The notes beneath the pieces are model-generated. The model ran no database searches. It was given only the letters and a program-made list of their open reading frames with translations, and was not told where the DNA came from. A stretch of DNA of 64,000 nt. It comes from Amoebophrya sp. A120 (lineage: Eukaryota; Protista; Dinoflagellata). Numbering within the stretch: the stretch's first letter is position 1; every line of letters begins with the position of its first letter. The stretch lies in assembly GCA_905178155.1 (NCBI GenBank), contig CAJINV010000007.1:3738265-3802264 (forward strand), given 5' to 3'. Below, in pieces: positions 9,001 to 64,000 of the stretch. Position numbers and translations under genes: made by a program.

Positions 9001-12000
9001 GAAGAGATATCAAATGTAAAAGTGTCTGGGTCTGGAAGATTCCGGGATTTGTGATGCATATTTTGTATGATCCATGATTCATGTAATGCATGATCTAGCA
9101 TCACAGATTTTTAGAGGGCTTCCTGATGCCTATTCCGCATGAGAGATGCCCTCTCCCGTGATAGGATCACCGTGTCTGATCATTAGACCCCCTGTATACT
9201 TTTTAGCGCGCAACCGGCCACGCGCGTAGTTCTTCGAGCAAGTTTGTAAGACTAACCCATCAAGGCAATACTGGAACTCCACCTTGCTCGCGGGCTTGGA
9301 TGGTAAGGCAGGTCAGCCACACATCGCGCCCACTGGCTGTAGCCATGCGTAAGCAATCGATAGCGGTTTTGCAGGTGCAGCCGGGTGGTAGTTAGGAAGT
9401 GGGCCGCGTCTCCACCTAGGGGTATCGGCAGAGGCTAAATCTGTTCTAACGCCCAGGTATTGGCAGAGGCTAAATCTGTTCTAACGCCCACCCGCCAGGA
9501 GTTAAATGGTACTACTACTACTACTACTACGCGTAACACAAACAGGACCCCTGTTGCTGGTCACGCAATACAGATTTTTTTTGGGATCCACAGACAGCAT
9601 GACAAGTTGCAACTTTGGAGACCCAGACAATGTTGCAATCCATAAGAGATGTACATGAACCAAGTCCAGCACTTGTCCGTCCAGTTGTTAACTATCGCGG
9701 AGGTGGTGCTGCAGATGGAGCCGAAAAACCGCAATTCGCAAACGCCCTACTGCGTCATCCGCGTGTTGACGCAGCTGTTTTTCCTGACCAAAGCCATGAC
9801 GGAGGCCAGCTGGAAGCACTTCGGCAAAAAGCGCAAAGCCTTCACCGACGCCAAGTCGAGCAGCGCGGGCTACTACAGCAACGTCGATGAAGAAGCCTCT
9901 CTGTCCAAGCAGGAGTTCACGGAGATGCTGATGCGGGCGAGGCTGGCGGACTACTTGGAAGCGGACCTGTCCTATGTGTTATACCACAAACAGTTTTCCG
10001 AAACGTTTGTCTGCGACGTGCAGAAGCAGGAGGAGCGGAAGTTTCTGTTCCGGATTTTATCCTCCCACTGGCAGGCGAATTTACAGCTGCGGCACTTCGA
10101 GTCCCACGTGGCTTATGAGATCCGGATGGCAGAGTGGCAGAACTGGCGCGGGCGGGAGCTGAATTTAACGCGGGCCACGAAAACACTATGTGACTACGCG
10201 CGGAATTGCTACGATTTGCGGAAAACACAATACTGGTACAAGGGTCTGGTGGAGTGTTTGGAGAACGAAGTGGTTGCTTACCAGTCCTGTTGCACCGTCG
10301 GAAAGGACTATGAGACCTACGGTGAAACATATGTCAGGCATACGCAACGGGACCGGGTGACGAAGACGAAAATGTTCTTTAACACGGCGCCCGACGCGGC
10401 GGATTCAGGTACATCATCCAAGAAAAACCGCAACAATTTATCCCGCTGTGAAAAAAATGCATCGCATTCGTTTGCTATTGGAAACAGTCTAGGCATTTAA
10501 TTTGTTTCTACAAAATTTGAAATTTTTAGCATGCAACCATCAAAAGCACAACATGCAACCTGCGAAAGTTTTGCTGCAGTCATGCATGATTGCTGCAACC
10601 CTCATGCACCGTGGCATTTATTGCAGGTAGTACTTGCATTCAACATGTTGAGTAAAGAGAACCTTCTCTCTGGGAAGTTGGGACTCGTCGAGTGCGATTC
10701 GCTTTTGCGCAGCATACAACAACCTGGACGGAACATCAAGCACTGCGAAAAACAATACGTCCTCGAGCAACAAGCCCAACCCGCAGTACACGAATTGCGG
10801 TTCGTTTCACATTCTGCTGCAAAGAATTTTGATCACGTCCATCAATTTCGACTTGATCGCACTGGTTTCCTCCTTCGACTCGTCCCTTCCTGCGAACGGG
10901 GTGAAGAGGGAAAAACATGCGAAAAACAAAAAATACCTGTTCGAGATGGAAGAATTGCTGCTGAACATTTTCCCGGAGCACGTGGTTATTCTGATGCTCC
11001 GGAACGCATCGCTGGTGTTAGCGTTTTCCCGGGCGATCTCTAACTCGTTGTGGATTCGGAACGGCATGGTTATCAACCGCAAAAGTGTCTGGGTCTGAAA
11101 GGATCGGAACTTGTGATGCGTGTTTCGGATCCTACAGAGATCTGTGATGCATAACGTGCAAAAGGTGCCCACTTCTGGCCATGCTGAGACGGCATTTCTC
11201 ATGCAGAATACGCATCACCAAGGAGCTACAGAACCTGTGATGCTAGGCCCTGCATTCCAGCAGTGGGGGAGCTCGGCAAAACTGCATGACAAATCTCGGA
11301 ATCTCCCAGACCCAGACATTTTTGCATTTGATAATGGTGATGCAGGAACAAAACGAGGCGTATCTGGAGGATGGACGGAAGCTATGGCGTTCTCGTCAAC
11401 TGTTACATTCTCAACTGTTGCATGAATTTGCCATGCAAGAATGGCAAAAGTTAAAGGGATGACCTTGCGCGTCTTGCATGACAGATTCCGCCCAGATTCT
11501 CAGTCTGTTTGGCTCTTCGAGAAATTGTCATGCGAAGCAGCTTGAGCGTGTCAATTCTGATTGTGATTTTGCATGACAAATCGTGTAACAGTTGAGAATG
11601 TAACATTTGAGAACGCCATAGAAGCAGGAGGACGTTTTGACTTTGCAGTTCTGCGCCATGATGCTCACCCTTCATCGACGGAAGCGGGAGCGGGAATCGT
11701 GGTTGAGAAGGGGAAGATTTTTGGACTTTGTGAAAAACGAGCAAAAATCTTCTGGTCGAAAGGAGAAAGCGGTGGTGGAGGTGATGATGGGTCGGGAGGT
11801 CGAAGGCGCGCCGGCCGAAGAAAGACAACATGACGATGAACAACATTTCAACACGTCAGCTGGCGTTGGGAGCAGTAGGCCGACAAACACTGTCGACATC
11901 CCGATCCTCGACCTGACAACGACCACCCTCCAAACCGATAATTTACTGAACACCAGCACGACGAACACGGGGACTATTTTTGCGGGAGCTGCAAACAACT

Positions 12001-28584: not shown

Positions 28585-29659
28585 AGAAGGAGACCTACAG
28601 TTGTACCTACTTGTTGCGTTTTTTTACTTACGGCCTCCCGTGTTGGTTCATCTGGGTCTGACCGTGTGGGGCGTGGTTCCAGCAATATCAAGTGCAACAA
28701 ACAAGAAGGATACAACTACGCGTGCAGTGCAGTGTCGTTTGTCTCGGAAGAGCGAAAAAGCTGCAAAGCTGCAAATCTGAATTGTACGAAGACGCTCCAG
28801 GGAATACAGGTACTTATGAGCGGTTTTAGTCGACAAGCCTTTGACTGTTGTTTGAAGTTCTTGTACACCTATGAAGAGAGCAATTCAAATTTGTTGTGTC
28901 TTTGAATTATCCCCAACATTCCCATTGAAACTCACACAGATGATCAAGGGCAAGGGGATGTGGACAGGACTCAAGCTACAGCGAGTTTGTTGGGCTGAAG
29001 ATTACTTCCTACTTCGAAGGCTGTCGGGATAAGCACGAGGCTCCGAGGAGATTATTTTCACGTCCGTCGCTTGATGTTGATCTTATTTCAGCTTTGCAAC
29101 ATAAGCCCTTGTTGGCCAGTTTTTCGACAGACACAATGAAAACGCCACTGACCGACCGTGAGAATGCGTAACATAGTACAATGAGCATTCACTCATCAGG
29201 CGACTTTTCCCAAAGAAACGTAAAATGGCATATGTACCCGCATCACACATAGCCTGCCATACAACAGGAACTCGCATTTTATCCTTGCTTTAGTTATGAG
29301 TGGTCTGAGTTTTGCTGATTTTGCTACGTCCTCAGAAATTATGAGCCGAACATTAAAAAACGCACGAAGAAATACGCGAGGAAGACTCATCAACATAAAC
29401 GACTTTCAGTAAAGAAAACTGTCTACTACTCCTGTTTGACTTTGACACCAACCCTCTTTGCAGTGCTGGAAGGCGTTTTCTTGAGAATTTAGGTTGCTTG
29501 ACGTTCACTTTCAGCATTCTCTTTTGCCGGCACGGTGTCGCGATGTGTTCTGGTGCGTACTGTCAAACAAGTGATGCGTGTGAGCTTAGTGTCAACATGA
29601 TGCCGGGTTAGGTGTGTACTGCTTTATCAAAACCAAAAACGAAAGCCCAAAACGTACAG

Positions 29660-30930
29660 AGAGAGCGGGAAGAGTGAGGGAGCGCAAGCCACTGGGGTGG
29701 CTCGCCACGCGCGTGGGGCTGGCGCGGCGATTTGGCAGGCGGCCGCTTTGCCGGGGGACGGCGCGGGCGGCCCCGCTTCGTTGGGCCGTTGAGGTCGCGC
29801 CGCCCCTGTCTTCACGGACCCGCCAGGAGTCCGGGCGGGGCCGGCGCAGCAGGCGGATGGATTGCCTGGGGCCTGGTCTTACAGCGCCGGCCCTTGCCAA
29901 GGCCCCGGGGGTCAGCAAGTTCAAGCCGCCAGCCTTGCAAGAATAAAAAAAAAGGAAAAAGCATGGCGCGGCCCCTTGCCCGGTTCTTGGTCCGGAACCA
30001 TCTCCCGGCGGTCGGGACATTGGTGGGCCGCCCCAGGCGGCATGGATCGATCGATGGCGAGTGGTTCAAGCGGAAGAAGGGCGGGACTAGCGGGGGCGAC
30101 GCGGAGAAGGTGGCGAAGAAAGGCGCCCCATTGTTGGCCCGCCCCGAGAGAAGTCGGCCCGCAGGGGAGGCAAGCAAACAGAGGGCCGGGCATTTGATCG
30201 GCGTCCTCGAGCGCGCACCTTGCCCGACTCTTTTGGCTGGCCTTGCCTGTGAGCGTGTGCCAGTCGGGCCTTGTGCGCACAATCAAAGGGCGGCCCTTTC
30301 TTTGGGCCGCTTTGGCGGGCGTCGGGACCCTCTTGGCCGAGTTGAAGCATGAGGCGGGGGGCCTGCAGGCTTTCAAGTTTGTCGGCCTGCCATTGCTCCA
30401 AAACCGCCCGCCAAGCAACGCCCGTGCCCCCTACCAACCCGCCGGGCCGCGGCGGAATATATAAACACAGCGGCGCCCCCCCGCTGTTTTCGCCGGTTGG
30501 GCGCCAGTTCCTTCCCTGCTGCGCGGGCCCGTCCCCCCCAATGTCGGCCCGCGCGGAGTTTTACCCAGGATACTCCGCAGGGCGGCCGCGCCCGGTTTTG
30601 GGGCGGGGGGGCGGGCGGGGGCTTCTTCCAGCTCCGGCGCGCGCGCGCCGCTTCTGATAATTGGATGGAAGGAAGGGCGGTTAGCTCTGGATTGGCGCAA
30701 GGAAGCTAGCCGCGCCAAAGGAGCACGGGCACGCCCGGCCGCGCCGACACTCGTTCCGATTGTTTGATCGTTGGGTGGCGCCATGCTGCTGGGTAGGGCG
30801 GCCACCACCATCCAGCATGCCATGTGTGGACCCGTCTGCGCATGGTGTCGTAGCCCCGCCCTGTAGGCTCGCCTTCATAGTGGAGCACAGCCTATGCGGG
30901 CCGGCCGTGCAGTGGCGCCGGCTGGGTGCT
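29660..30930. repeat. GC-rich intergenic block, probable non-coding repeat
   Basis: Abrupt shift to GGCC/GCGC-rich sequence with A/T runs, compositionally like 60081-61940. ORFs are Arg/Gly/Pro-rich with no recognisable domain. Termini not resolved. Confidence 0.35.
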
Positions 30931-31290
30931 GGCGCGTATGCGTTTATTTTGTTGGATATCCTTCTCGTTGGACAGTATGTAGGAGCAGGTGGGATGTTGC
31001 CGCAATGTTTCGCCGTTGCGATGCAGTACGTGCCTACTCATACAATTAGGGGCCGCCCACTCCCACTGACACTGTTAATAGTGGAAATCAAAAAATGGCT
31101 GCAGTAGACGCGGCCATCGGTGTTCAACATGTTGCTCTTGGTCCATTTCGCGCACGCATTCATTGTCCTTCCTTGCATGATATTGAGCGCTCAATAAATC
31201 CTTAGGGCGCGCGTGGCTAAACGAAGCGACCAAACGCGGGTTGTCCAGATCAACATGATTGGAGATAAAGCTAGAAAGTTGTAATCCAAG

Positions 31291-34550: not shown

Positions 34551-35009
34551 TGGAAAATCAAAATGGAAAGTGCCGCCGCGTCGCATCGTGGCATGGAGGA
34601 GATGAGAAGTCGTGGATCAGGTGGGGTAATGAGTATTGGCGTGGCTGTGCAAGAAACTACGCGACTCCGTCCAAAGTCATCGTGAAAGCATTTCACCTGA
34701 ACGAACCTCGATCCGGTTTCTAGAGGCAGGGGCAGTAATATGTAGGATAATTTTACGAGATCGAGGCGGAGATTGCTCTTTGTGAGGTCTGACGTCCTCG
34801 AATGTCATGGCTACTTGGCTTTCTGTAAGATTTGAAAACGGACAAACGCTAGAAAAGAGAAATGTACGCCATCAATTGTGAAAAATTTCATCACTCCTGT
34901 AGTGCCAGCTTAGGCATTGAAAGTCAAGTGCTGTGAGGATGTTGAAGATAAGTTGTTCGCTCTTTTCGTTGAAGTTGGTGTCGCGCAGGCTTTGTTCGTT
35001 TAACTTCAA

Positions 35010-37035
35010 GACAGCGCGCCAAGAAGGGCGCCCCAGCATAGGGGCGCGCTGTCGGAACGACGCGGAGGACTTGCGCGCGGCTTCCGGGGCTTCGTAGCGT
35101 GCGAACGCCCCCGGAGTTGCGCAGCCGGGGGGTTACGGCGATCCACTATGATGAAGGAGCTCCCGCGGCAGATTTTGGATCGCTGAAAAGGCTTGCCCCA
35201 AGAAAGAAATGCCAGGGCGGGGCTGACGTAGTTCCGGCTTGTTTTTTGTTTCCGAGCTTGCCGAGGGTGGGGAGAGGCCGCCGGGGGCGGGCGTCGCTCG
35301 GGCAGAGAGGTAGCGCGATGCTGCGACGACGTGAATCGGAGGCGTGGGCGCCGATGTGTTGTCTAAGCTTGCTAGCGCCGGCGCCTCGTCGATGCTCAGT
35401 TGGCCGGGCGTATTGCGCCGGGCACTCGTTTCGCACGTTGGCCCCCGACCACGCCGCGCGGAGACAGAAGCCCAGGCGGGCTGCCCAGGGCAATTGGCGC
35501 GCTATCTTGAAGCACTTCCGGGGCACGCCTTGCGTTGCGTTCGGCGACACTCTCCCAGTCGTTCAAACGTGGTGGCTCTCCAGTTGGTAGCCCACTTTAG
35601 TGCTTTCCTCGTGTATGTGCTCCGCGGCGACTTGATTGCGGAGACCCAGGGAGGCCGAGGCGGGTCGCGGAGACTTGCAGCCCAAAGACTCTGGCCGCGT
35701 GGCGGATCGCTCGGCAAGGGGGCGAGCGCGTTGCCGGCGCGCCCTTGTCCGGTTGGGGCTGCCGCATTCGGTTCGGGAGGTGAAGCGGCGACGCCATTTG
35801 CGGCGAGCCTATGGCAAGTGGGCGGGCGGGGGGCCTACTGCCTACGGGGGCCGGAGTGTGTGTCCTCGGCGCGGTCACGCACCCGCGCCCCGCCGGCCTA
35901 GTCCGTGTTGCGCCGGTTGGCCGCCCCTGCTCCGCTGTTGGCCTGCTTCCCTTCAAGCATGCAGGCAGGCGACCCACATCGGGGCGGGCCGCGCCAGCCC
36001 CCGGAAGTGGCCCCCACCCATTGCAGCTGAGACGCTGGCGGCGCCGCTTGTGGTGGAGGCGGCGCGGCTCGCCTTCTGTCCTTCGGCGCGTGGGAGGGCC
36101 TTTGCCCCAGAACGTGCTTGCTTTCGTTGCCGACACAGGGGCGGCGCACTTACGTAGGGCCGGCTCCCGCGCTGATCTGTCTTGCGCAGTTTCTTCCCGC
36201 TGGCGTGCCTTGCTTGGTCGATAAAGGCTGCAGCGCTTGCATTTCAAAAAAAGCTAGTGCGTCGCACCAGCTTAACTTGGTTGCCATTGCGTGCCACTCT
36301 GCTCCTGTTCGGTTTGTGCGTCGGCCCTTCGTCCTGTAGTATGTAGTGAGGTCACCGAACGGTTCTAGCCGGGGAGTTTTTTTGCCACCGACCCAGACAG
36401 CAAAACCGACGACAGTTTTCAAGCGGGCGGAAGTGTTTTTACACAAAAAAAATCTCCACTTATCAAGCGGCCCTGGCTGACCTGGCACCGAATCGCCAGC
36501 GGATTCTATCGGTCGCCGCTTGAAAAACGACGCAGAGGAGCGCCCAAAGGCGGCGCCCTTCTGAGGCGCCCACCGCCTTAGTTTCTGGCGGTTTGGGGCG
36601 CCCAAAAAGCAGCGCGAAAAAAACGCGCCCAAAATCAGAACAGCGAAACAGCATGGCACGGCCGCGATTTCGGAGCATTTTGGGCGGCCGCGAAAGCGGC
36701 CGCATTTTCGCCGGTTTCAGAGCCTGGGAAGCTTTGCAAAAAGCGCCGGCTAGAAAAATAAAAACGCAAAAGAGCAAAAGCGCGCCAGACGCGCAAAGCC
36801 AATCCGCATGCTATGGGCCCGATTTGTTTTCGCTTTTTGGGCGCCCCCCGTGGCACCCAGATCGGCCCCATAGCATGGGCGTTGGCTTTCGGAAAGGAAT
36901 ATCGGAAATTTGCTAAAATTTGTGACGTTTATCAAGTGGCCGCCATACCGTGCGGCCTAACGTTACTCACGGCGGTATGGCGAGCCCAGAAAAAGCAAAG
37001 CGACGGCCAAAACGCCCGCGACGTCACTACTTCCG
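35010..37035. repeat. GC-rich intergenic block, probable non-coding repeat
   Basis: Begins with hairpin gacagcgcgcc...ggcgcgctgtc (35010-35053); many GC palindromes; no credible ORF. Confidence 0.35.
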
Positions 37036-37414
37036 CCCCGGCGGCTATACTTGGTACTAGATGAACTGCAGGCATCGATGAGCATCACACGCCCGATTAG
37101 TGCGAGCTTGTTGCTCCTGTGGCCGTGTATGGATTGCCCGGTAGCTTCCGCGTGCGCAAGTGCTCTGTGTCTGTACCTATCCACAGAGAGATTGCTCGCC
37201 TACTCTCCGACGATTTCTTTTCCTTCTGCAGTTCTGCATGGTGCATGATTCATTTTTGGTGACGATTGTCCGCATGCCATACTAACTTCAAGGGAAGCGT
37301 GCTCGTCTTTTCTTGCTGTTGCGCGATAAGTCATCAGCATCCCCACGTCCGTGTGAAGAACACGACCAAAGATGCACCGAGCACCAATAGCAATATAATT
37401 AAAGCCCTACAGCC

Positions 37415-51579: not shown

Positions 51580-54500
51580 ATGAGTCGCGAAGCGTGGGGT
51601 GTGGTGATATCCTCGGGCCTAGAAGCCGTCGCGGCCCAGGATGCAATTACCGCTCGCATCGCCGCTGCGATCGAAGTGCGCGACCGTCTGATTGCAGGTG
51701 GCGCGACTCCGCAGCTACTGGGCGTGTTTTTCGAGAGGCTGGAGCCGGCAGTGTGGCTGGGTTTGCAAGCTAACATTTTCAACAGTCTCCTTGGTCGGGA
51801 TGTGGGAGATGGTTCTCCAGCGTCCTCTGAGGCTGAGTCACCGGACGGGAAGGATGCTTCACCGAACAAAAGGCAAACACAGAATATTGAAGGAGACCAA
51901 TTGAACCGGACCGCACACCCATTCCTTTCCCCAGCCAACGTAACTGTGAATTGGACACCGCAGAAACGTGACCTGGTCGTTTGGCTGGGCGGTCCTTTGT
52001 TGCTTACAGAAAGTGAGGCGCTCCGCGCGAGAGCTAAGCTTCCGGTGACCGAGGAAGCTTTTTTGCAAGGATCCGTTTTTGAATTGGTATTGGTGTCGCA
52101 TTCAGATAACGGGGGTGGCACGCATTGGCTGAAAGTGGAGCACGTCGACAAACCCCTTGCGGATATGATAGGCGAAGACCTGCACCTGCAGCTCTCGCCG
52201 CAGAAGACAGAGGCATCCGCGGCTGCTCGTGGTTCAGGTTCGACCATGGCTGGAACGACCTCCACAGTGGGACTTTCTGTTTCGTCAGCAGCCTCTGTAA
52301 GTGGAAATAAGAACAATAAACCGTCTCACAGAAGCAAACGGTTTTTCTTAATCCCACCAACTTTTATCGAATCGCATCCCTTCGAAATCTGGCGCGGTAG
52401 GGAGCTGCTCTGCAGTTTAGGTGACTTAATTGCTATCGATTACGACCAGAAGAATAAGGCACAGGAAACACGTAAATACGCTGCGCGTTCGTCCATTGCC
52501 TCTTCGTCGCGGAACGCCGTGGCGGAGGAAACATTGACTGGCGTCACGGCTGCTAGCCGCGCTGGGAGTTTCACAAGTCCGCGACAGCCCGCGCGCGGCG
52601 GTGCTGTTGCGGCTGCTGTAGCTTCTTCCCGGAAGCAAGATGGCGACAGTGCGTGCCGTGGTACTAGTGATGACGTCGGCAAACGCTCATCCGCGGTGAT
52701 TCACGAAACTGAGTACTCGTCGTTCCCCCATCAAAAGCTTACTGAAACACGCTCAGCGCTCGACCTTGAAGCTGCACATAAAAATCCAACGAGTGCTGAA
52801 ATGGTTCGCTTGCTGCAAAGTGAACTCGACCGACGGCCGCAACTAACGGCGGGATCGTCTGCAGCTAGAACCTCGGCACTTCATGCGGTACCGAATAAGC
52901 GTCAAGCTACCTCCGGCAAGTCCTCCTCGATCAAAAAAACTAGGCAAAAGCAGCTTCTTGTGTTTCTACAAGACAACCAGGACCAGCCCACGATGGACAA
53001 AAAGGCGGCGTCCTCTTGGAGCATCACCCGCGTCTCATCGCTACCAGAAATGCAACTGTGGTTAGGTGAGGAACCAGACGACTTCAGCCTCTTCGTGATA
53101 TTTGTTTCCGGAGCCGCGAAATTTTTGCACGAGGAGTTGCAGATGCTGACGCTGCGCCGCACAGCCGCTGGCGCTGGTGATAAAGATTCCGACAGCAGCA
53201 CTTGGAGCTTTATTGCATCTAAACTCTTCTTACGAGCGGAAGAGAGCAAGAAGAAAAAGGAGTGCCAGCAACAGGCTGAAAAAGGGCTCAGTGAGTTGCT
53301 GACATGCGGCTTCGACGCGGTTGCGCGAAGTGGGGGGAGTGTGTTGGTGGTGAACGATAGAGAAATTATTGCTAGGTCTGAGAAAACAAAACCCGCGTTT
53401 GGAACTGCGCGTTCACAACTCGGTCGGGCGGAAGAAATCCTGCTGTCTGAGTTTGATAACCTTATCCTGTGCAAAAGTATCGCTATCGTATTCGTATTGC
53501 AGTCATGCAATACAAATCTTTTTCTTAAGGTGAATCAGCATTACAAATGTGATTTCTCATGCTGAGAAATTTGTAATGCATTCATACGAGTACGATAGGA
53601 TACTTTTGCAATTCATAAACCTGTCGCACAAGCAATTGAACAAATGCGCGAGCGCTTCGGGTTGTGGAAACAAGGCCAAGCAGACCAAGAAGAAGAAAAA
53701 GAAAAACGATTCCTGCGCAGAAGCAGCTGTGAAGAGTTCTACTACTACGCGAAAGACGTCCCGAGAGCATGATTTTGATTTGCTCATGCCTATGCCCGAA
53801 CAAGGAGAAACTCACAGCCAGACAAGTGCTTACGTCGCGCGTGTTCATGTGTACTTCTCTTGTGAAGTGCCTGCATCCGCGGAGTCAGAGCAGCCACAAC
53901 AAGCACCAGCAGCGGGCTCAGCGGCAACGACTGAAAAATCCAGCTCGTTCACACCGAATCCAGACGTTCATTCTGAGATGGGAGTTAATGTTGTTGCTGC
54001 GGCCAAGACCCCAGGAAAAGTAAAGAACGCACTGCAGCACTGCGCACAAGAAAGGTGGTTGGCGCCTGCGTTCCCGCAAAAGGACCCAGGTTACACTGAA
54101 AAGAGCCAGAATGTGAGCGCCTGTCTTCAGAACGCAAGTAACAGTGAGTCACAGGACCAGGCAGCCGTTTCTGCTGATGGATGTTCGGGTTTGGTGGAGA
54201 CCGTTGGTACAGCAGGTTTACCTCGTGCAGTTTCTGCAGTTGATACAGCACCGGGTAGTCTCTCCGTCGATGCTCGGGCTGGTTTTGAAGAACCGGAGCA
54301 ACTCGAAGGACAGTACGACGGTGCAGCCAGAGGCGACACTGCGCCAACGGGTGCAGCTGGCCGAAGGAAATGCTCGGCGAGCGACGACGAGACGCATCAC
54401 GATGAAAATCCATTCCGCCCTGCAGAACTACGCGGCGAGAAACACGCTCCCCGACAAGTACACGTCGGAAGTAGCGAGAAAATGTGTGCGAAAAAAAGTC

Positions 54501-57500
54501 CGCCATTGTGTACAGGAGAACAAAATGCAGAGCCTAGAGGAAAGATGAAGATCATGTCCGTAGTGACAACAACGACCTCAAGTGGCAGCACGAAAACAAC
54601 CGCTTCTCCACTGTCGCCACGCAGCCTGCTGGAAAGCTGTAGTGGCACGACGGCTTCCTCGTCTGATCGTGATCACGATCGAGAAAGTGTTGACGCCTCG
54701 CTGCAACTCTCTAAAAGTAGAGGTGAAGCATCGTCCTCGTCCTCATCCTGCGTTACTACTCCCAATGAAAATGATTGCGCCGGCTCTTCGCGGCTTCCAA
54801 GCACGTTGGAGAGTGTGATGTCCTCACCGTGTGAGACTACAGGTGGAACCACGAGCGACACAAGGGTATCTGAAGCCGATGAACACACCAGTTGTACGTC
54901 TTCAGACCATGGCGCCCCGGCCCCGACTGGTGCTGCTGGCAAACCTAAAAAAGCGGTACGAGTACAAGCAGCGAACAAGAAAGCCACGGGTATAAAGCAG
55001 ATAGTCGCAGTCGAAGTTGTTTCGTCTCCGCGTCCCAGCGGTGCTGCACCTGCGACCAGTTCAAGTGAGTCCAGCTGCAAGAAGGCACAGCATATTGAGT
55101 CCCTCCGAACAAGCAGTGGACTTTCTGCCGATCGAGCCACAAGTGACAGCAAAGTCGAGACAAAGATGAAGCTAGGTGTTGCCGAGGATCCGGCGGCTTC
55201 GTCGTTACTGACCCCCGCTCGACGACCAGCTCCTGCACAGGCGTGCAGCTCCCATTCAGAAAATTCTACCGCGAACAAGCTCTCTAGTGCGAAACAGAAA
55301 CGACTCGAGCTGCTCCGACGATTCCAGGAGGAGCCGGCAGACGGAAATTTGACAAAATTTGCGGACCCAAGCTACAAGCCACCTGCTGTGTCGGAGGCGT
55401 CGCTTCCTACAGAGCCCAAAGCCAAAGTCACAGACACGAACATAACTAGGCCCTCGAAGGAAAAGGATGGCCCGGATGTCGGTGCAAACAGTTCGTCGCG
55501 GTTGATAGCAACTGCGCCTACGCCCCAGGAACGGCAGCGGAAGGAACCGGAACCGCCGAGCTCCTCGGGCCAGGTTACGACTTTAAATATCCCCAAAGAA
55601 CATTCACTTTTGTATGCTGCCGCTTTGGTGCGAATCTTGGATGAGAAAGACAACCGTTGCGGAATCCTTGCTGTCCTGTGCCAAGACGAGCTACTGCAAA
55701 AAGTGAAGGCTATAGTCGATCCACTTGGGAAGCAGAAGCTTGGACGCGTTTTGATCCGCGTGATCGAACAGTGGCCCGACACTTTTCGTGTGGTCGATCC
55801 GGCCGGAAACAAATTCTGTGTCCGGTTGAGAAAGCATTCCGAACCCGAAGTCGACTGGTGGCGCAGAAAAGTTGACTTCGCTGCAACATTTAAGAAAGCA
55901 AGAGAAAGAACTGAAAACACGCCGGAACGAAACTCGGCGAAAAATGAGAAGGACCGGTCGAAGAGTTTGAAGACAATTACCGAGCCGCCGCTGCCACACC
56001 CGACCAATGAGCCGCAGGAAAAACGAAGTTTCCCCGGCCCCCCTTCCGTTTGTCCGCCGCCACCACCTCCACCACCACCCCTTTGCGTTCCCGTCGAGGT
56101 CCAGACTTTCTCTAGCGAAGCAAAAGAATTCTCTTCGAGAGGAGCAAAATTTCATGCTCTCGGAACTTGCAAGCCATGCGCGCACCTGCCTCGGTGCGTC
56201 AACGGGCGTGACTGTGATTTCTGCCACGACTGCTCCCCAAGTGAATTCAAGCGGCGTCTGTTGCAAAACAAGAAAAACAAGCAGAAAGAAGGCGGCACCA
56301 ACAAGGCGAACCAACAGAAAGATGAGCATCATCAAGACCGCCAGTTCTACAATTCGCAGGCCGATGCGACCTATGCCGCGACATCGTCAGCGCTAAGCTC
56401 CCCAGCGACACCACCTCCGCCACCTCCCTACAACTTCATGCACCACGAATACGGACACGGTATCGACCCCGCCCCACTGAAACAGCCCCCACTCGTGTCC
56501 AACACGGCACTGAAAACGAAAAATGATGCATCGAAATCCAACACTCTCACCGATACCACCGCATCCAAAAAGCACCACTGGAAGTACGACGCCATCGTGA
56601 TGGCGAAAGAGGCAAAACAGGTGGCGCCGAACCTGCAGTGGCGACAAGGCGTCGTCGAGTGGGCCACCAGCCCGACCGACCCGAGCAGATCCTTCGGCGG
56701 CATTCTGTTGAACGACGCGGGCGGCTTCGGTGGGTCGGTGCAAGCGCAAACCGGCGGCGCAACGGTGTGTCACTTCGAGAAGAACAGCGTTGCCGGCACC
56801 TTTCGCCTGCCGCCCGCCGCGGGCGACGCGGTGCGCGTGATTCCAAGAAGGAGCGGCAACTACGAAACGAAGGAGCGGAAAGATGTTTGGACTGGGGAGG
56901 AGAAGGTGTCGTACGCACGTTCAAAAGCGAAGAAGACCGAGGTGATCGCTTGGAAGTGGGGGAAAGACCTGGGAAAGGAGGAAAAATTTCGGGGGTTTTC
57001 GCATCTGTTATTAGAGATGCGGGCGTTCGAGGAATGGAGGCCGTTGCTGGAGGAACTATTGGAGGAGGTCAACGAGGCGAGTGGTGGATTCGAACACGAT
57101 ACTAGGTGGACGAGGGTGAAGGAAGATATGGCTTCTAAACTCCTGCTCGAAGAAGAAAGTGTTGAGGGCGCTATGGAGTCAGAGTTCTTAAAAGGCCACC
57201 GACCAGGCGGTCACCGAATAAAAACAAAAATCGGACAACAGAGCAAGCACGCGTCGCTGCCTGTTGCTGCAGGACCGGCTGCAAAGAAGAAAGCTGACGA
57301 GCAGAAGCCAAGATCGAATGCTGTTTCGCTTCCCTGGATTTCTGACGAGTCCTCGGAAGAAGACAGAAGACATCGTGGTCGACAAGACCGCACGCGGATA
57401 GAGAAGCGGAGTAAGCAGATGAGGGCGACAGGTGAACAAGGACAGCAAAGCGAAAAACTGTCTTCAGCAACAACTTCTTGGAGGCGTCGATTGGTCGATG

Positions 57501-60500
57501 ATTCCGACCGTTCACCTGGAACGGACGACGAGGAGGAAGCCCCACATGATCAAGGCAGCGATGATGATTTTTGGCTTACGTCCTCCTCCGACGAAGAGAT
57601 AAATCCTTCTGGAGGTGGTGTCTCATCCCTACCCGCGACCACCAACACAGAAGGTTTCCCGCTGCGCAAAAACCTCTCCCCACTCCAGGTCAAACGCCGG
57701 CGGGCCGTGGCGGAGTCGCACGAGGCGTTTTGGGTGCTGTGTGTGCGGGAAATTTTGTTGCACGTTTTGCCGGAGTGTGGCCAGCTGTTGGAAGAGTGGA
57801 AGCCGTTCCCGAAATCTGCGTTGCCAATTACACCTTGGGAGACGACCAACACGTCCGCGACAGTTGCACCGTTCGGGGCCTCGGCAAGTAACTCTTCCAA
57901 TAGTCACGGGAACTATCACAAACCAGCTCCATGGAGCAAAAAGGACAGGTCTCCTTCGCGAGCTGACTTCGCTCGTCGCGCCTTGTTCTTCCTGCGGGTA
58001 TTGCACCTCTTCACCGTGATCGAGCAACAGTTGCACACAGGGCCACTGCAGGTTTTTCTAGGAGCAATCGGGAGTCTTTCTGAGAAGCATGCGGCGCAGT
58101 CGTATGGAGCTGGCGATGAAGTTCTTTTCGGGAGGAATGCGTCCTCGTGTCCCACTTCGACCAGCACCTCGCCCTTGCTATTATTCTGCAGCTTTTTCTT
58201 TTGTGGTTTGCTTCGCTCGTGCAGCGACGAGGGGAGCACGACTTCTGGCGCAGACGACAACTCGTCACTGCTAAGCGCGAAACGGAAACTGCAGCAATAT
58301 GCACCGAAGGTTCTCTTTGACTGCACGAATCATATCGCAGAGAACGCTGCGAAATTTGTTGACATTTGCGGGGCTTCAGTCATTCCGTTTTTGACGACGG
58401 CGCAGGCAGTCGCGGCAAATCTGGTGAGGAGCCACATGCTGCTGCAGAAGGGCCACCAGCTGAATATCACAAATTCCGCATTTTGCATTCACGGTAGTTC
58501 GGGGGCTGGAAGAACGACGCAGAGGAGGTCCGGCTGGTCGTCCTCTTCTTCTTCACGCGGGCCCAAAAGCGGAATATCTTCAGCACCGAACAAATTACAT
58601 CACAACAAGGCTGCACGCGACAGCGAAGATGCCCCTGTTTGCACAAAATACTTGCACGAAGACGTGGCGCACGTGGCCGCAAAGAGTAGATACAGCCTCC
58701 ATAGTACACCAAGTTGCGGAAACATGCCTTTTGCATCAGCAGGCACAGGATATCACGAAAACGTTGTTCACACTAGTACCGCAGTGCCAACATCACAATT
58801 CCTTGTCGGCGAGGGCGAACAAGTTTTCTTCTTCCTGCAATTATTGCAGGACATCGCTCACACGAACCACGGAAAGCTCACCACCGAGCTCGCCATACTC
58901 TTGTCCCAGCGCGATCGGAACAAGGACGCAAAGCTGGACTTTCTGAACCTACAAGACGTGCCGTGGCGCGAGTTGCCGGATCGGCCGACGGTAAGCGAAC
59001 TGCGCGACCCGAGCAACGTCGAAGCCCCCTTGCCGAAAATCAGCTTCGACAAGCCCTACAGGTCCTTTGAGGAGTACATGGAGACGCAAGTCCGCCTTTT
59101 TCGCGAGGACGGCATCAGTAAGGTCCGCCTGACCATGAGCAAATACATCAAGGACAAGCGCATCGTGTTTCGCGAAATGGGCATGTACCACTCCGTGCTG
59201 GTCGGTATGCACACGGATCTGAACAAAGGAGGCACCGCCCACAGCAAATCCGCCGTCAGTCTGGTGTTCAAATCGCTGAAGCCCTTGGGGTATGAATTGC
59301 AAAAGTATCGTACTCGTATATAATGCATTACAAATTTCCTGCTCAGCATGAGAAATAGAATTTGTAATGCGGATTTACCTTAAGAAAAAGTCATGCAAGA
59401 CTTGCATTTATACGAGTACGATACTTCTGCACAGGATATGGGGAAAGACAAGGAGGCGGAGAACATCGCGAAGCTGTGGGGGAAGGAGGAGTTGCGGTAC
59501 GGAAACATGGTGTATTTGTCCTTGAAGGGCACCTTCGCGGAGAGCTGCATTCTGTTCGGGACGATCACGTGGTCGGATCTGCTGGACCAAACGGGGCTGT
59601 TCATGTTGGAAGTTGCCGGGCAGGCCAGTTACGACGGCTCGCTGACCGAAGACGCCAGCCTGTTTGAGGTGATCACGAAACTCTTGGCCACAAACACGTT
59701 GGTCGTGGCGGAGCAGCTGACCTATTACCCGGCCTACGGGCCGGTCTTGAAGGTTCTGCGGGAGAACTTTGGTAGCGCGCGCGACTTGGCGTTTTACGAA
59801 GAGCTTGTGTTCGGGAAATTCCAGAACAAAGCATTGAGAATTTTTAACGGTGCTACTTCTTGCGCAGCCGCAAGTACCAGTGCAACTCCCGCCCCGTGGG
59901 ACGGCGCAACGAGCGCAACCCGGATGCCTCGAGCGGCGCGGCGAAGGTTTTTCTATCTAGATGAAGGAAAAGACCGGATCAAACTGCCCGCGCGGCTGGT
60001 GTTTGGCCCGGAAGCGGGGGAGGTTTGTGTGACCGTGGCTGACTGCTGCAACCAGATCGAATACAACGAGCCTGGTTTTTTTAGACAAGGAAAATCAAGG
60101 AAGTTCATCAAAAATCGAACACCCCCCGGCCCGGGGCTCCCGGGAAATATAGATGATGTGTGTGGGCCCCAACCATTTCGCACTTCCCCCCTGCGGAGCC
60201 CGCCCGGCCATGCGCTGCCGCTGGCATGTGTGTCGTTTTTAGTTCTCACGCCTGCGCATGTACGAGCCGAAGCGACCCCAGCATTGGCTCTGCAGCCCTG
60301 CTCCGGTTCAAAAGTAGGCGCCTATGAAAGAACAGCCCGAAGGCGTTCGAAGGTGGCGCGCGTTTAAAATCGGCGCTATTGTGCCGAAAGCGTTCCGGGG
60401 TCCCATTTTTTGTCCTGTCGCAGCGCAGAACGCTCCCACTTTGTCACCTGAATCTGTTGCGCAACTCGAAGAATGTAGAGCAGCGACATTACGTCCACCA

Positions 60501-63500
60501 GCAGAACCACCCAGAGCCGCAGGAGCAAACGGGCAGCCGCCCAGTCCGTGTCCCCGCCTCGGCCCGGTTGCCGGCAGCGCCGGGCCACATGCGCTCCCGA
60601 AGGCGCTGCCCCCCTGTCGGAGTTCGCCGGTAAGGCCGGCCACGATACCAGTTGCGCGGGCCGGCGCGATGCGTTTTGCGCATGCGGCCTCCGTCCGGTA
60701 GCCGAAGACACTCCGAACGCCTCGCCCCTGTTCTGCAAAGTTTTTGGCAGATGCAAAAGCGCGCGGCCTTGTGCCCGCATTGGCTGCGAAGACGAGGCGG
60801 CCCACCGTTCTTTCTTCCAAAAGCCCGCGGCCGTGGGTGTCTTAGGACGTGCTTGCCCTGGGAATATAGCGGGCATGGGGGCAATAAAACAAAGAAGGCG
60901 AGAAGGGAAAACCGGGAGGAGCTCCTGTCCGAAGGCGAAGCCGGGGGGCCCCTCAGGGGGGTGCTCTAGGGGGGTGCTTTTTTGGGCGCGGAATTCTCCA
61001 GTTTTAGCTGGGGGAAAGGCTTCCCAAGGGGGGTGCTTTTTGGGGGTGCTTTTTTTTGCGAAAAAGGGGGCCCCTTTGGCTGCCCGGCCGGGGCCCCCGG
61101 CGGCCGCGGAAGCAGCCCTTTTCGCTTTTGGCCAAAGAGAACGCCGGCGGCCCCGGAGCCACGCCGGGGCGCGCCAGGCTGCTCCCTTCGGACCGGCCGC
61201 CGCCCCGGCCGCCAGGCAACGCTTCCGGTCGCAGCGAAGGCGGGCTCAGGGCCGCGCGCTCTTGCATCTGCCAGAAGCCTTCCAGAACTGGGGCGAGACG
61301 TTCGGGGGGCCTCCTGCCATCGGACGGAGGCCACACATGCAAAACGCACCGCATCGGGCCACGCCACTGGTATCGCGGTCGCCCCTACCGGCGATTTCCG
61401 ACAGGGCCGCGGCGCTTTTGGTGACGCTTTTGCCCGGCGCTTCCGAAAGCCGGGCCGGGGCGGGGAAAGAAACGGGCTGGGCGGCTGTTGGTTTGTTCCT
61501 GGCGCTTTGGGTGGTTCTGCTGGTGAATGTGGCGGCGTTGCTCTACATTATTCGGGTTGCGCGAGCGATTCAGGTGGAAAACTGTAAGGGCTCCGCGCTG
61601 CGACAGGACAAGAAATGGGGGCCGGCAACGTTTTCGGAAAAATGCGACTCATCGTAAACGCGCACCACCTTCGAACCCCTTGCACTTGTTTTCCCATAGA
61701 TGCGCGCCTTTGATTCGGAGCAGGGCTGCAGAGCCAATGCTGGGGTCGCTTCGGCTCGTACATGCGCAGGCGTGAGAACTAAAAACGACACACATGCCAG
61801 CGGCAGCGCATGGCGGGGCGGGCTCCGCAGGGGGGAAGTGCGAAATGGTTGGGGCCCACACACATCAACTATATTCCCCGGGAGCCCCGGGCCGGGGGGT
61901 GTTCGATTTTTGATGAACTTCCTTGATTTTCCTTGTCTAATTTTTTTTCGCAGGGCTACAACGTGTCATCATCTTCTGGTTGGACCGCGAGATCTTGGGG
62001 AAGTCGGGACGTGCCAGGACCTGTTGGAGAGGGCAGCCCGAAGCCGAACCACGGAAGCACTGCAAGCATATCCAACTTCGGGACTCGCGTAGCTGCAAAT
62101 CGCAACGTCACGACGGCTGAGGCTTCACCGGCCAGCATCGATCTTCGTGACGAAACCTCCACCCCGTTGGATCGATTTCAGAAACGGGCGATCCACCACA
62201 TGCTGACGAATCGCCTGGCGATCATCCAAGGCGCCCCCGGAACCGGGAAATCCTTCACGTGCCGGCGCATAATCCGCATTCTGCATTCGTTGCAAGGGGT
62301 CGAGAACTGCAACACCAACCCGGGCAGGTGGCGGTTCGTGCCGACGCAGGACCGGCTTGAAGCTGGTGTTGGTGAGGACCTCGGGAATATTAAAATACAG
62401 ACGACAAAAGAAGAGCAAGGTTCCCTTTCGAAGATATCCGACCTTCAGAGCTGCCAGCAACTCCGTTTTCTAGTTGTCACCTACAAAAATCTGGCACTGG
62501 ACGAAACGCTGAGCGGATTGCTTTCCACCTTCCCGGATAACCTGGTCCGCATCGGGAACTCCAGCAGCCCGGCGGAGACGCCGGAGCTGTCCGCGCGGCG
62601 GCTGTTTAACCTGAAGAAGCAGAAGAAGTATGGACTGAGCTGGAAGATGCGGAAGGAGTACAAGCAGCTTTTGTTGAGGGCGAGAAAGCTGCAGCTCCGT
62701 TTGGAGGACGAAATCCGCCGGTTTCAGGTCGTGCGGTTCTTCTCCCCGACGATGTTCTTGCTGCAGTGCACCTACGAGCAACTGTGCAACCTGCTATTGT
62801 TGAAATGGGAAGAGCAACGCCCGTTCATGGTCGAGGCAGTGAAAAGCCGAACCGCTTTGCTCGGTATGCTTGGTCACGTGTCAGACTTCCTCGCGAAAAG
62901 AGAACAGTTGGGCGCAGCCGCGGGAGCAGTTGCGGGGCAGGCAGTAGATGAACAAGTATCTAGAGCAAGTAGCTCTTCTTTGCCTTTCTCTTATACCCCA
63001 CCCCCGCGTCGGCTGGTTGCGGAATTCTTCGCGAACCCGGGGCGGCTGCCACTCGACTACCAGGAGACGTGTGCGGTTCTAGGCAACCTAACGACCGAGG
63101 CTCTCAACGAGTGGGCCCCAGACGTCGAGGAATTTCGAAATTTTTCGAGAAGCCTGCGCGAGGCGAAGATCGATCTGTACAGCACCAGTGAGGAGATTAT
63201 TGACTGGAAGGATGGCAGAATCCAGGACTCGCTGCGCGACCAAACCGAGGACCAAGCAGCCGCAGAGCGGCTGGGAGAGAAGGAGGCGTTCCTGAAATCC
63301 CTCGCGGTGCAGGAGAACGAGGAGGTGTTGGACTACAAGGAAAGGCTGCGAGAGGAAACAGAAAATTTGTACGGGCGTGCGAGGGCGAGTCACGAATCGC
63401 AATTGAAGAAGCTTGACGAGATCGTTTTTTTCGACAAAGAAGCCGAGGTTTCCGCGCGGAACCACGTCAAGGAGCAGGCGAAGGAGCTGGGCAGGAAGGC

Positions 63501-64000
63501 AAAACAGGTGGCAAAATTCAGCAAAAAGTGGTTTTGCGACTTGAAGAAGAAAAAGAAAGCTGAAAAGATAAAGGAAAAAAAACAGCACAAAGGTCAAGCA
63601 ATGCAATCTGAAGGACCATCTGTTGGCGCAAGAAGGACCGTAGGTGTCCGCGACACAGCAGCTACTGGTGGAACGACAACCGCGACTAGAATCGCACGAG
63701 GCGCAACCCCTGCGAAGAAGAACGAAGACAACAGCAAGACCAGCCCACTTTCTAACAGCGACGAGAGCGATGCGTCCTCCGACACCGACTCCATTTCCTT
63801 TCTCAGCGACGCGTCCTCGTCTTTTTTGGAAGAAGAGGAGCTTTTTGAACGTGGAGACGAAGAACGTGATAGAGGCACGCGTCAACCCGATTCTGATTCT
63901 GACTCCTCTAGTGAAGAGGACGAAATCAATGATCCTCATGCGGCAGCTGGAGATAGAGGTACTAAAGCACCGACCAACGTTCCCTATTTCCCCGCCGTCG
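51580..64000 (+). CDS. ZNFX1/Upf1-like superfamily-1 helicase, 3' end outside window; exons 51580-53462, 53623-59290, 59444-60080, 61946->64000
   Basis: ZNFX1-type PTVSEL..YMETQVRLFRED, LRYGNMVYLS, YYPAYGPVLKVL, then LDRFQKRAIHHMLTNRLAIIQGAPGTGKS and LVVTYKNLALD..LVRIG. CCCH finger at ~56168-56227. Start uncertain; a further exon near 51247-51339 is possible. Confidence 0.88.
53463..53617. mobile_element. Family-A introner (155 bp), reverse orientation, TSD AACCT
   Basis: TATCCTGTGCAAAAGTATC...GATACTTTTGCAATTCATA; excision gives FDNL|SHK. Confidence 0.95.
59291..59438. mobile_element. Family-A introner (148 bp), TSD TGGGG
   Basis: TATGAATTGCAAAAGTATCGTACTCGTATA...TATACGAGTACGATACTTCTGCACAGGATA; excision gives KPLG|KDKE. 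Confidence 0.95.
60081..61940. mobile_element. 1,860-bp non-autonomous fold-back element (TTAG...CTAA), TSD TTTTT, inside the helicase CDS
   Basis: 225-bp near-perfect TIR (60081-60305 / 61716-61940). Diverged arms extend to ~60800 / ~61215. Element + TTTTT removal gives EPGF|FSQGYN, open through Walker A. Confidence 0.93.
60956..61058. repeat. Short GGGGGTGCT repeats in the fold-back spacer
   Basis: Four copies of ggggg(g)tgct, three followed by T runs. Confidence 0.75.

What the first reader, a model, noticed from the sequence alone, without database searches (positions are those of the whole stretch)
60076..61945. 1.86-kb fold-back element apparently acting as a giant non-canonical intron
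Seen: arms of about 720 bp around a ~410-bp spacer, TTTTT TSD, and exact frame restoration into the helicase Walker A exon. The nearest GT (60075) and AG (61953) are phase-incompatible. It is GC-rich, TTA-ended, lacks the TGTCATGC array and is about 7-17 times the size of the simple copies. Inference: a recent insertion from a different transposon class that follows the same TIR + 5-bp rule, so any such transposon might be made harmless as an intron.
Basis: partly seen in the sequence, partly recalled or inferred. Interest (0 to 1): 0.88.

Follow-up and report, generated by a model that had tools for sequence, protein, structure and literature searches.

The report
Long hairpin transposon inside helicase exon
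A 1.86-kb hairpin-shaped mobile element, repeated elsewhere in the genome, sits in the coding sequence of an otherwise intact helicase gene of the marine parasite Amoebophrya, and is likely cut out of the RNA like the non-standard transposon introns already published for this organism, though no RNA read tested that here.

Summary
The structure is real. The element spans 60081-61940 (1,860 bp), is TTA/TAA-ended and has TTTTT on both sides. Its arms are two-tiered: outer 225 bp 98.7% alike, inner ~490 bp 77%. DNA contigs match both flanks into the ends and show a multi-copy family with other insertion sites. It interrupts a ZNFX1-like helicase gene that is collinear with an intact Amoebophrya AT5.2 orthologue. 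A 99%-identical named protein places the window in Amoebophrya sp. A120. Excision is not shown: none of 8 runs gave the joint, and RNA cover was too thin to test it. 'Exact frame restoration' follows from any TSD insertion and is not evidence of splicing. Removal as a hairpin-bounded non-canonical intron is still the likeliest reading (0.6). What remains new: no catalogued A120 family has this size or arm length, and its TTA-purine-purine ends are of the A25 type. This scan noted similar 1- and 13.6-kb hairpin-bounded introns in other dinoflagellates (unchecked).

The parts
60076..60080 (.). left copy of the 5-bp direct repeat TTTTT (likely target-site duplication)
   Evidence: its length is not fixed by this site alone (2-5 fit), and 5 is the rule in 12 other elements of the window
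60081..60305 (+). outer left terminal inverted repeat, 225 bp, begins TTAGA; first 64 bp perfectly complementary to the right end
   Evidence: 222/225
60306..60789 (+). inner left arm, a diverged inverted repeat
   Evidence: 77.1% to the right arm
60790..61228 (.). 439-bp GC-rich spacer (66%) with four G5-6-TGCT(T)n motifs at 60956, 60969, 61028, 61042; no Pfam match in 10 element ORFs; no Rfam match above chance
61229..61715 (-). inner right arm
   Evidence: other copies carry the same right-arm type (record 6)
61716..61940 (-). outer right terminal inverted repeat, ends CTAA; contigs of other copies match through 61940 and then diverge
   Evidence: loose ends behind 61940, 61943, 61945
61941..61945 (.). 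right copy of the direct repeat TTTTT
61941..61953 (+). T8-CGCAG tract that looks like a canonical 3' splice site (phase 0); candidate acceptor for a variant junction
   Evidence: use untested
59444..60080 (+). exon upstream of the element; aligns to the orthologue up to 59839, with a weaker motif match at about 59984-60058
   Evidence: 13 of 1000 shuffles reach the motif score
61946..64000 (+). exon downstream, open to the window end; AAA_11 domain, Walker A at 62230-62253
59291..59438 (.). small TAT-ended introner (148 bp, TGGGG repeats) in the same gene; the orthologue alignment has a 51-codon gap over it (153 = 148 + 5)
53623..59290 (+). long open upstream exon of the same helicase gene

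Best explanation
This is one copy of a repeated, likely non-autonomous DNA transposon with very long inverted ends, lying in an exon of a ZNFX1-like helicase gene of Amoebophrya sp. A120 between two TTTTT repeats, and it is likely removed from the pre-mRNA as a hairpin-bounded non-canonical intron. Shown: the anatomy, the multi-copy family, the intact gene on both sides. Inferred: a transposase encoded elsewhere inserted it and duplicated 5 bp. In the transcript the arms would pair (predicted: 631 of 709 left-arm bases) and bring the two T-runs together. The organism's end-pairing-tolerant splicing route would then cut within them, removing 1,865 nt (eight equivalent cuts, read as TT-AA, TT-AT, TT-TT, TA-TT or AG-TT). 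A close variant would use the AG at 61953 with a TT donor in the left T-run (for example 60077-61953), losing four linker residues.
For: Organism: P0003 is 99% identical and named Amoebophrya sp. A120 by NCBI; the small elements have the TAT+7+AAA ends reported for A120. In A120, 65% of RNA-supported introns are non-canonical, and TT-AG is among its listed motifs; TT-AA, TT-AT and TT-TT are listed for A25, whose introner ends start TTA plus two purines, as here. Catalogued A120 introner families include kb-sized TIR elements: fam103 ~1.19 kb with 24 of 27 donors non-canonical, fam86 1.62 kb, fam38 0.81 kb with a 5-bp TSD. The gene is intact: 8,352 coding nt hold no stop and are collinear with the 2,874-aa AT5.2 orthologue on both sides. 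A small introner sits in the same gene under a matching alignment gap. Multi-copy: X1 depth is 152-1,027 in element bins against 38-45 in flanks, single contigs run at 115-185, and other flanks join at the same end. In X5 (RNA by the tool's guess), 6 of the 8 listed pieces are exact exon pieces, 4 upstream and 2 downstream at depth 2-5, while bins 60001-60800 are empty. That fits transcription on both sides; it is weak.
Against: No joint across the element appeared in any of 8 runs laid, and exon cover in the RNA-like runs was too thin to be a test. Frame restoration cannot tell splicing from knockout. The only A120 protein found for this gene is a 175-aa partial model that starts at 62152 and does not cross the element. 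The published validation of non-canonical introns covered 40-1,000 bp only. The ends are not the TAT type that dominates A120. The no-decay argument is weak: at the outer-arm divergence (0.67% per lineage) only 2.3 stops are expected (P0 = 0.11), and a cut-and-paste element can be old while its insertion is new. A diverged relative's right end is present with 462 nt of flank in an X5 contig at depth 24, so at least one related end is retained in that run.
Confidence: 0.6

Rival explanations
1. Knockout or weak allele: a recent insertion that is not removed, so transcripts stop at the in-frame stop 60365-60367, end in the element, or are degraded through the long double-stranded hairpin.
For: No spliced joint seen. 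The A120 model is only a downstream fragment. An intact frame is expected if the insertion is young. The predicted hairpin is very long and stable (-1,467 kcal/mol). No empty-site contig appears in X1, so the allele looks fixed in that sample; ZNFX1-type RNA-silencing helicases can be dispensable in culture (recalled).
Against: X5 holds exact pieces both upstream and downstream at similar depth. This copy differs from all laid relatives at several places, 7 of 9 right-arm ones being derived against the left arm, which hints at some age, though these could be assembly errors or dropped variants. Such insertions are routinely spliced in this strain.
Confidence: 0.22
2. Removed by ordinary splicing at canonical sites near it: GT60075-AG62017 (in frame, loses 26 linker codons), or a phase-0 GT (60023, or inside the left arm such as 60314 or 60353) with AG61953. 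This includes the case of an insertion into an older short intron.
For: These pairs are frame-compatible, and AG61953 has a strong pyrimidine tract. The linker after the CC motif is 45 aa beyond CCDAI in the orthologue against about 75 under exact excision, so a deletion would be tolerated.
Against: Donors at 60023-60038 would delete the V-x-T-V-x-x-C-C-x-x-I motif shared with the orthologue (13 of 1000 shuffles). AG62017 has no pyrimidine tract. U1 was not detected in this organism. The downstream linker shows no significant alignment under any model, so homology cannot settle it.
Confidence: 0.13
3. Different boundaries: a Tc1/mariner-like element 60084-61937 with a TA duplication in a TTAA context. 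Removing 1,856 nt also keeps the frame.
For: TA stands at 60082-83 and 61938-39, and 1,856 and 1,865 are equal modulo 3 (arithmetic).
Against: All four listed loose-end groups from other sites, and three listed contig pieces, keep A61940 (11 loose ends were not shown). The matching TTTTT would then be chance. Twelve neighbours follow a 5-bp rule.
Confidence: 0.04
4. Assembly artefact (a fold-back chimera).
For: No listed contig spans the element, and the junction overlaps are 27-29 nt.
Against: The inner arms differ by 23%, which a sequencing fold-back would not give. The flanks carry a duplication. X1 contigs run from both flanks into the ends without differences, and no empty-site joint appears.
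Confidence: 0.01

Closest known systems
Introner elements / non-canonical introns of Amoebophrya A120 and A25 (Farhat et al. 2021, PMC7789003)
   Same: Same organism; inverted ends plus a 3-5-nt direct repeat at the exon boundary; repeated; no transposase; no GT-AG at the ends.
   Different: Arms are 225 bp near-perfect plus ~490 bp diverged, against 8-20-nt IR motifs. At 1,860 bp it lies outside the 40-1,000-bp window they analysed. Ends are TTA-purine-purine (their A25 consensus), not TAT (A120). No RNA-validated junction here.
kb-sized TIR introner families of A120 in Gozashti et al. 2025 (PMC12130899, file sd07: fam103, fam86, fam38, fam74, fam65)
   Same: TIR DNA elements or unclassified elements of 0.6-1.6 kb that form introns in A120, many with non-canonical sites; some with a 5-bp TSD.
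   Different: None of the 58 A120 rows states a length near 1,860 bp with arms of 225-710 bp. The fully palindromic families are about 100-390 bp. The rows carry no sequences and several unclassified families (such as fam200, fam25) give no clear length, so identity with one of them cannot be excluded.
Euglenid nonconventional introns (review PMC11282704)
   Same: TIR-paired ends, TSD-like repeats, lengths up to several thousand nt, non-canonical junctions.
   Different: Different lineage and end consensus. A pyrimidine tract and AG lie next to the right end here.
Foldback / long-TIR class II elements (FB, Galileo, MULE-type; features recalled)
   Same: Very long inverted arms around a non-coding core; outer arms better conserved than inner.
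   Different: 5-bp rather than 7-11-bp duplication (recalled); no tandem modules in the arms; no transposase link found.

Membership tests
Amoebophrya introner element (Farhat 2021) | inverted repeat pairing the 5' and 3' ends | tested here: met
Amoebophrya introner element (Farhat 2021) | 3-5-nt direct repeat at the boundaries | tested here: met
   TTTTT both sides
Amoebophrya introner element (Farhat 2021) | repeated in the genome | tested here: met
   depth, subfamilies and other flanks
Amoebophrya introner element (Farhat 2021) | splice junction supported by at least 3 RNA reads | tested here: inconclusive
   no joint in 8 runs, with too little RNA cover
Amoebophrya introner element (Farhat 2021) | length 40-1,000 bp (their analysis window) | tested here: not met
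   1,860 bp; window stated
A120-type introner families | ends TAT + 7 nt + AAA | tested here: not met
   ends start TTAGA; the 12 small neighbours start TAT
A25-type introner families | ends TTA + two purines | tested here: met
   TTAGA; sequence kinship with any A25 family was not testable
non-autonomous TIR DNA transposon | TIRs, flanking duplication, no transposase frame | tested here: met
   (0 Pfam hits in 10 ORFs)
non-autonomous TIR DNA transposon | duplication seen at several insertion sites | tested here: inconclusive
   only unpaired flanks of other copies were visible
non-autonomous TIR DNA transposon | autonomous partner with the same ends | not testable with these tools
   no genome held; exact-match scans of metagenome and viral contigs empty
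Mutator / Foldback / Galileo (features recalled) | 7-11-bp target duplication | tested here: not met
   longest direct repeat at the ends is 5
Tc1/mariner (feature recalled) | TA duplication | tested here: inconclusive
   possible by sequence; disfavoured by the invariant A61940 in other flanks

The most novel reading that the evidence does not exclude
Amoebophrya cuts out inserts by end-pairing geometry alone, regardless of end sequence or size: a 1.86-kb element forming a ~700-bp RNA hairpin, with the sister strain's TTA-type ends, is excised to the base from an A120 helicase mRNA, and other exonic copies of the family are too. That would make it the extreme test substrate for the unexplained U1-less splicing route.
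Probability: 0.35. Interest if true: 0.62.

Novelty: new member of a known kind. Interest (0 to 1): 0.36.

Why it matters
How Amoebophrya removes tens of thousands of introns without fixed splice signals is unresolved (PMC7789003). If this element is excised, it shows that the route handles a ~700-bp duplex and non-A120 ends, which favours structure-guided over sequence-guided recognition. The locus also offers a clean three-way test (exact cut in the T-runs, use of the adjacent AG, or failure). If it is not excised, it marks a size or sequence limit. The general phenomenon is already described for this strain, which caps the interest.

Tried and rejected
No RNA holder was listed for the stretch. 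The three raw-read RNA runs with the same species label gave 0, 1 and 1 reads, so they are no test. X9 gave one contig of another copy. X3 and X4 cover mainly the element with short gappy contigs, as low-depth DNA would, so they do not test splicing. A protein search for a junction-spanning product with the upstream exon end found nothing among 66-210-aa proteins; the representative search gave only the partial P0003 as a close hit. Exact-match scans for the ends in metagenome and viral contigs were empty. Rfam gave one chance-level hit. Orthologue alignment of the linker downstream of the insertion was not significant (774 of 1000 shuffles as good). There is no strand bias to G-U pairs among arm differences (31 against 27), so no sign of selection on RNA pairing of the inner arms. 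No second copy lies in the window. The GC-rich blocks at 29.6-31 kb and 35-37 kb are unrelated. Ploidy of this strain was not established by the passages read, so no haploid-exposure argument is used. The phase-0 donors at 60023-60038 are disfavoured by the conserved motif. Copy number was not computed, because summed contig depth is not a copy number.
Full report
1. Observation. The element runs from 60081 to 61940 (1,860 bp, GC 62.7% against 55% in the exons), starts TTAGA, ends TCTAA, and has TTTTT directly outside each end. BLAST aligns 60081-60789 to the reverse complement of 61229-61940 at 83.8% over 718 columns, leaving a 439-bp spacer. The arms have two tiers: 222 of 225 outer positions match (mismatches at 60145, 60153, 60206), and the inner 493 columns match at 77.1%. 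The spacer has four G-run-TGCT motifs. Ten ORFs of 95-392 aa in the element have no Pfam match. A window-wide scan for terminal complements with 5-bp direct repeats gave 13 hits against 1-2 per shuffle. A relaxed list of 25 TAT-ended candidates held 12 with an exact 5-bp repeat, of 109-637 bp. The 5-bp rule is therefore well supported locally, although this T-rich site alone admits 2-5 bp.

2. Organism and host gene. A phmmer search returned P0003, 99% identical, which NCBI names as a partial protein of Amoebophrya sp. A120. The best full-length relative is P0002 (EukProt, Amoebophrya sp. AT5.2, 2,874 aa, AAA_11 plus AAA_12). It aligns in order to 56483-58090, 58850-59839 and 62149-63507. A more distant hit, P0001, has a ZNFX1 domain that aligns to the upstream exon, hence 'ZNFX1-like'. 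The alignment has a 51-codon gap over the small introner at 59291-59438, equal to the element plus one repeat. The large element lies in a poorly conserved linker before the Walker A motif (62230-62253). One short motif just upstream is shared with the orthologue (13 of 1000 shuffles reach its score); the downstream part does not align. The three coding segments total 8,352 nt without a stop.

3. It is a family, and the assembly looks sound. In run X1 the flanks have flat depth of 38-45 with no differences and run 29 and 27 nt into the ends. All element bins, spacer included, have summed depth of 152-1,027, and single contigs at depth 115-185 match at about 83-98%. Loose ends from other sites start behind 61940, 61943 (two runs) and 61945, which fixes the terminus at 61940 and suggests T-rich targets; 11 further loose ends were not shown. 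A contig at depth 153 matches the spacer edge and inner right arm at about 92%, so the left-right asymmetry is older than this insertion. Of 9 listed right-arm places where every laid X1 contig differs from the window, 7 agree with the left arm (40 of 267 rows were shown). These are either private mutations or errors in the assembled repeat. No empty-site joint appears. X1 may be the source of the assembly, so it is not independent.

4. Is it spliced? This was not shown. Eight of 10 listed runs were laid and none gave a joint across the element. X6-X8 had 0-1 reads. X3 and X4 behave like low-depth DNA. X5, RNA by the tool's guess, has no depth over 60001-60800 although the family is repeated, which fits RNA; it has six exact exon pieces at depth 2-5 on both sides, among 8 pieces shown of 90. 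With cover that sparse, the lack of a junction piece or a retained piece means little. The A120 model P0003 starts at 62152 and skips in-frame stretches, so the one annotated product found gives no support.

5. Mechanism. Inferred: a transposase supplied in trans inserted the element and duplicated 5 bp. In RNA the arms are predicted to pair over 631 of 709 left-arm bases and to close at 60081:61940, which sets the two T-runs side by side. Farhat et al. report 65% non-canonical introns in A120, IR-plus-DR introners, no detectable U1 and intact U2AF. They give TAT ends for A120 and TTA plus two purines for A25. This element has the A25 pattern, and its equivalent cut positions read TT-AA, TT-AT or TT-TT, all listed as common in A25. 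I put removal at or next to the T-runs at 0.6, knockout at 0.22, canonical rescue at 0.13, TA-type boundaries at 0.04 and artefact at 0.01.

6. Known context. Gozashti et al. 2025 state that A120 introners derive from non-LTR, LTR and diverse TIR elements. I read all 58 A120 rows of their file sd07. They include TIR families of 0.6-1.6 kb, one Mutator family with an 8-9-bp TSD, and short palindromic families. None states this size with such arms, but the rows have no sequences. A search of files sd02 and sd06 for the end motif found nothing; the other files were not searched for it. Four literature searches returned no paper describing this family. The library lacks many subscription papers, and Roy et al. 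2023 was seen only as a citation. Euglenid nonconventional introns of up to several kb are a parallel. Earlier notes of this scan describe 1,038-nt and 13.6-kb hairpin-bounded introns in other dinoflagellates; I did not check them.

7. What was seen of each paper. PMC7789003: abstract, sections 10-12 and 16, passages, supplement part 3 of 5 and search passages. PMC12130899: section 6, passages, sd02 part 1, sd07 parts 15-18, search rows. PMC11282704: passages. 10.1101/2025.04.10.648098: passages; its supplements are closed. Others: search listing only. Transposon superfamily TSD lengths and ZNFX1 biology are recalled.

8. Verdict. A real, well-formed long-armed mobile element in a helicase exon. 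It works like an Amoebophrya introner in all probability, but the defining RNA junction is untested and it fails two formal features (length window, A120 end motif). It is a new and unusually large example of a known kind. Interest 0.36.

Noticed in passing
window 61785-61940 and 61149-61173 (X5 record 6; X1 joint): A single-copy diverged relative shares only the outer 156 bp (92%) and a 25-nt spacer piece. It lies in a 1,853-nt contig at depth 24 in the RNA-like run, with 462 nt of flank, so it may be an expressed or unspliced relative whose interior could be checked for a transposase.
   Followed up: partly
window 3135-59438: Twelve TAT-ended introners with exact 5-bp repeats (3135, 5650, 9008, 11071, 13771, 14807, 22661, 22880, 25050, 43548, 53463, 59291) and one with a 4/5 repeat (19195). 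Two adjacent ones (22661, 22880) have the same CCACC repeat.
   Followed up: partly
window 9008-9644: A 637-bp TAT-ended element, over twice the size of the others; possibly nested.
   Followed up: no
window 29620-31050 and 35000-37050: Two GC-rich (66-68%) blocks that look non-coding, unrelated to the element and to each other by BLAST; the second holds a 32-bp inverted repeat at 36795-36889.
   Followed up: partly
window 62152-63375: The public A120 model (P0003) skips two in-frame stretches that the AT5.2 orthologue partly retains, so the annotation of this ~3,000-aa gene looks fragmentary.
   Followed up: partly
window 11396-11610: An inverted pair sharing its inner end sequence with the 43548 introner family, not picked up by the TAT/5-bp scan.
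   Followed up: no
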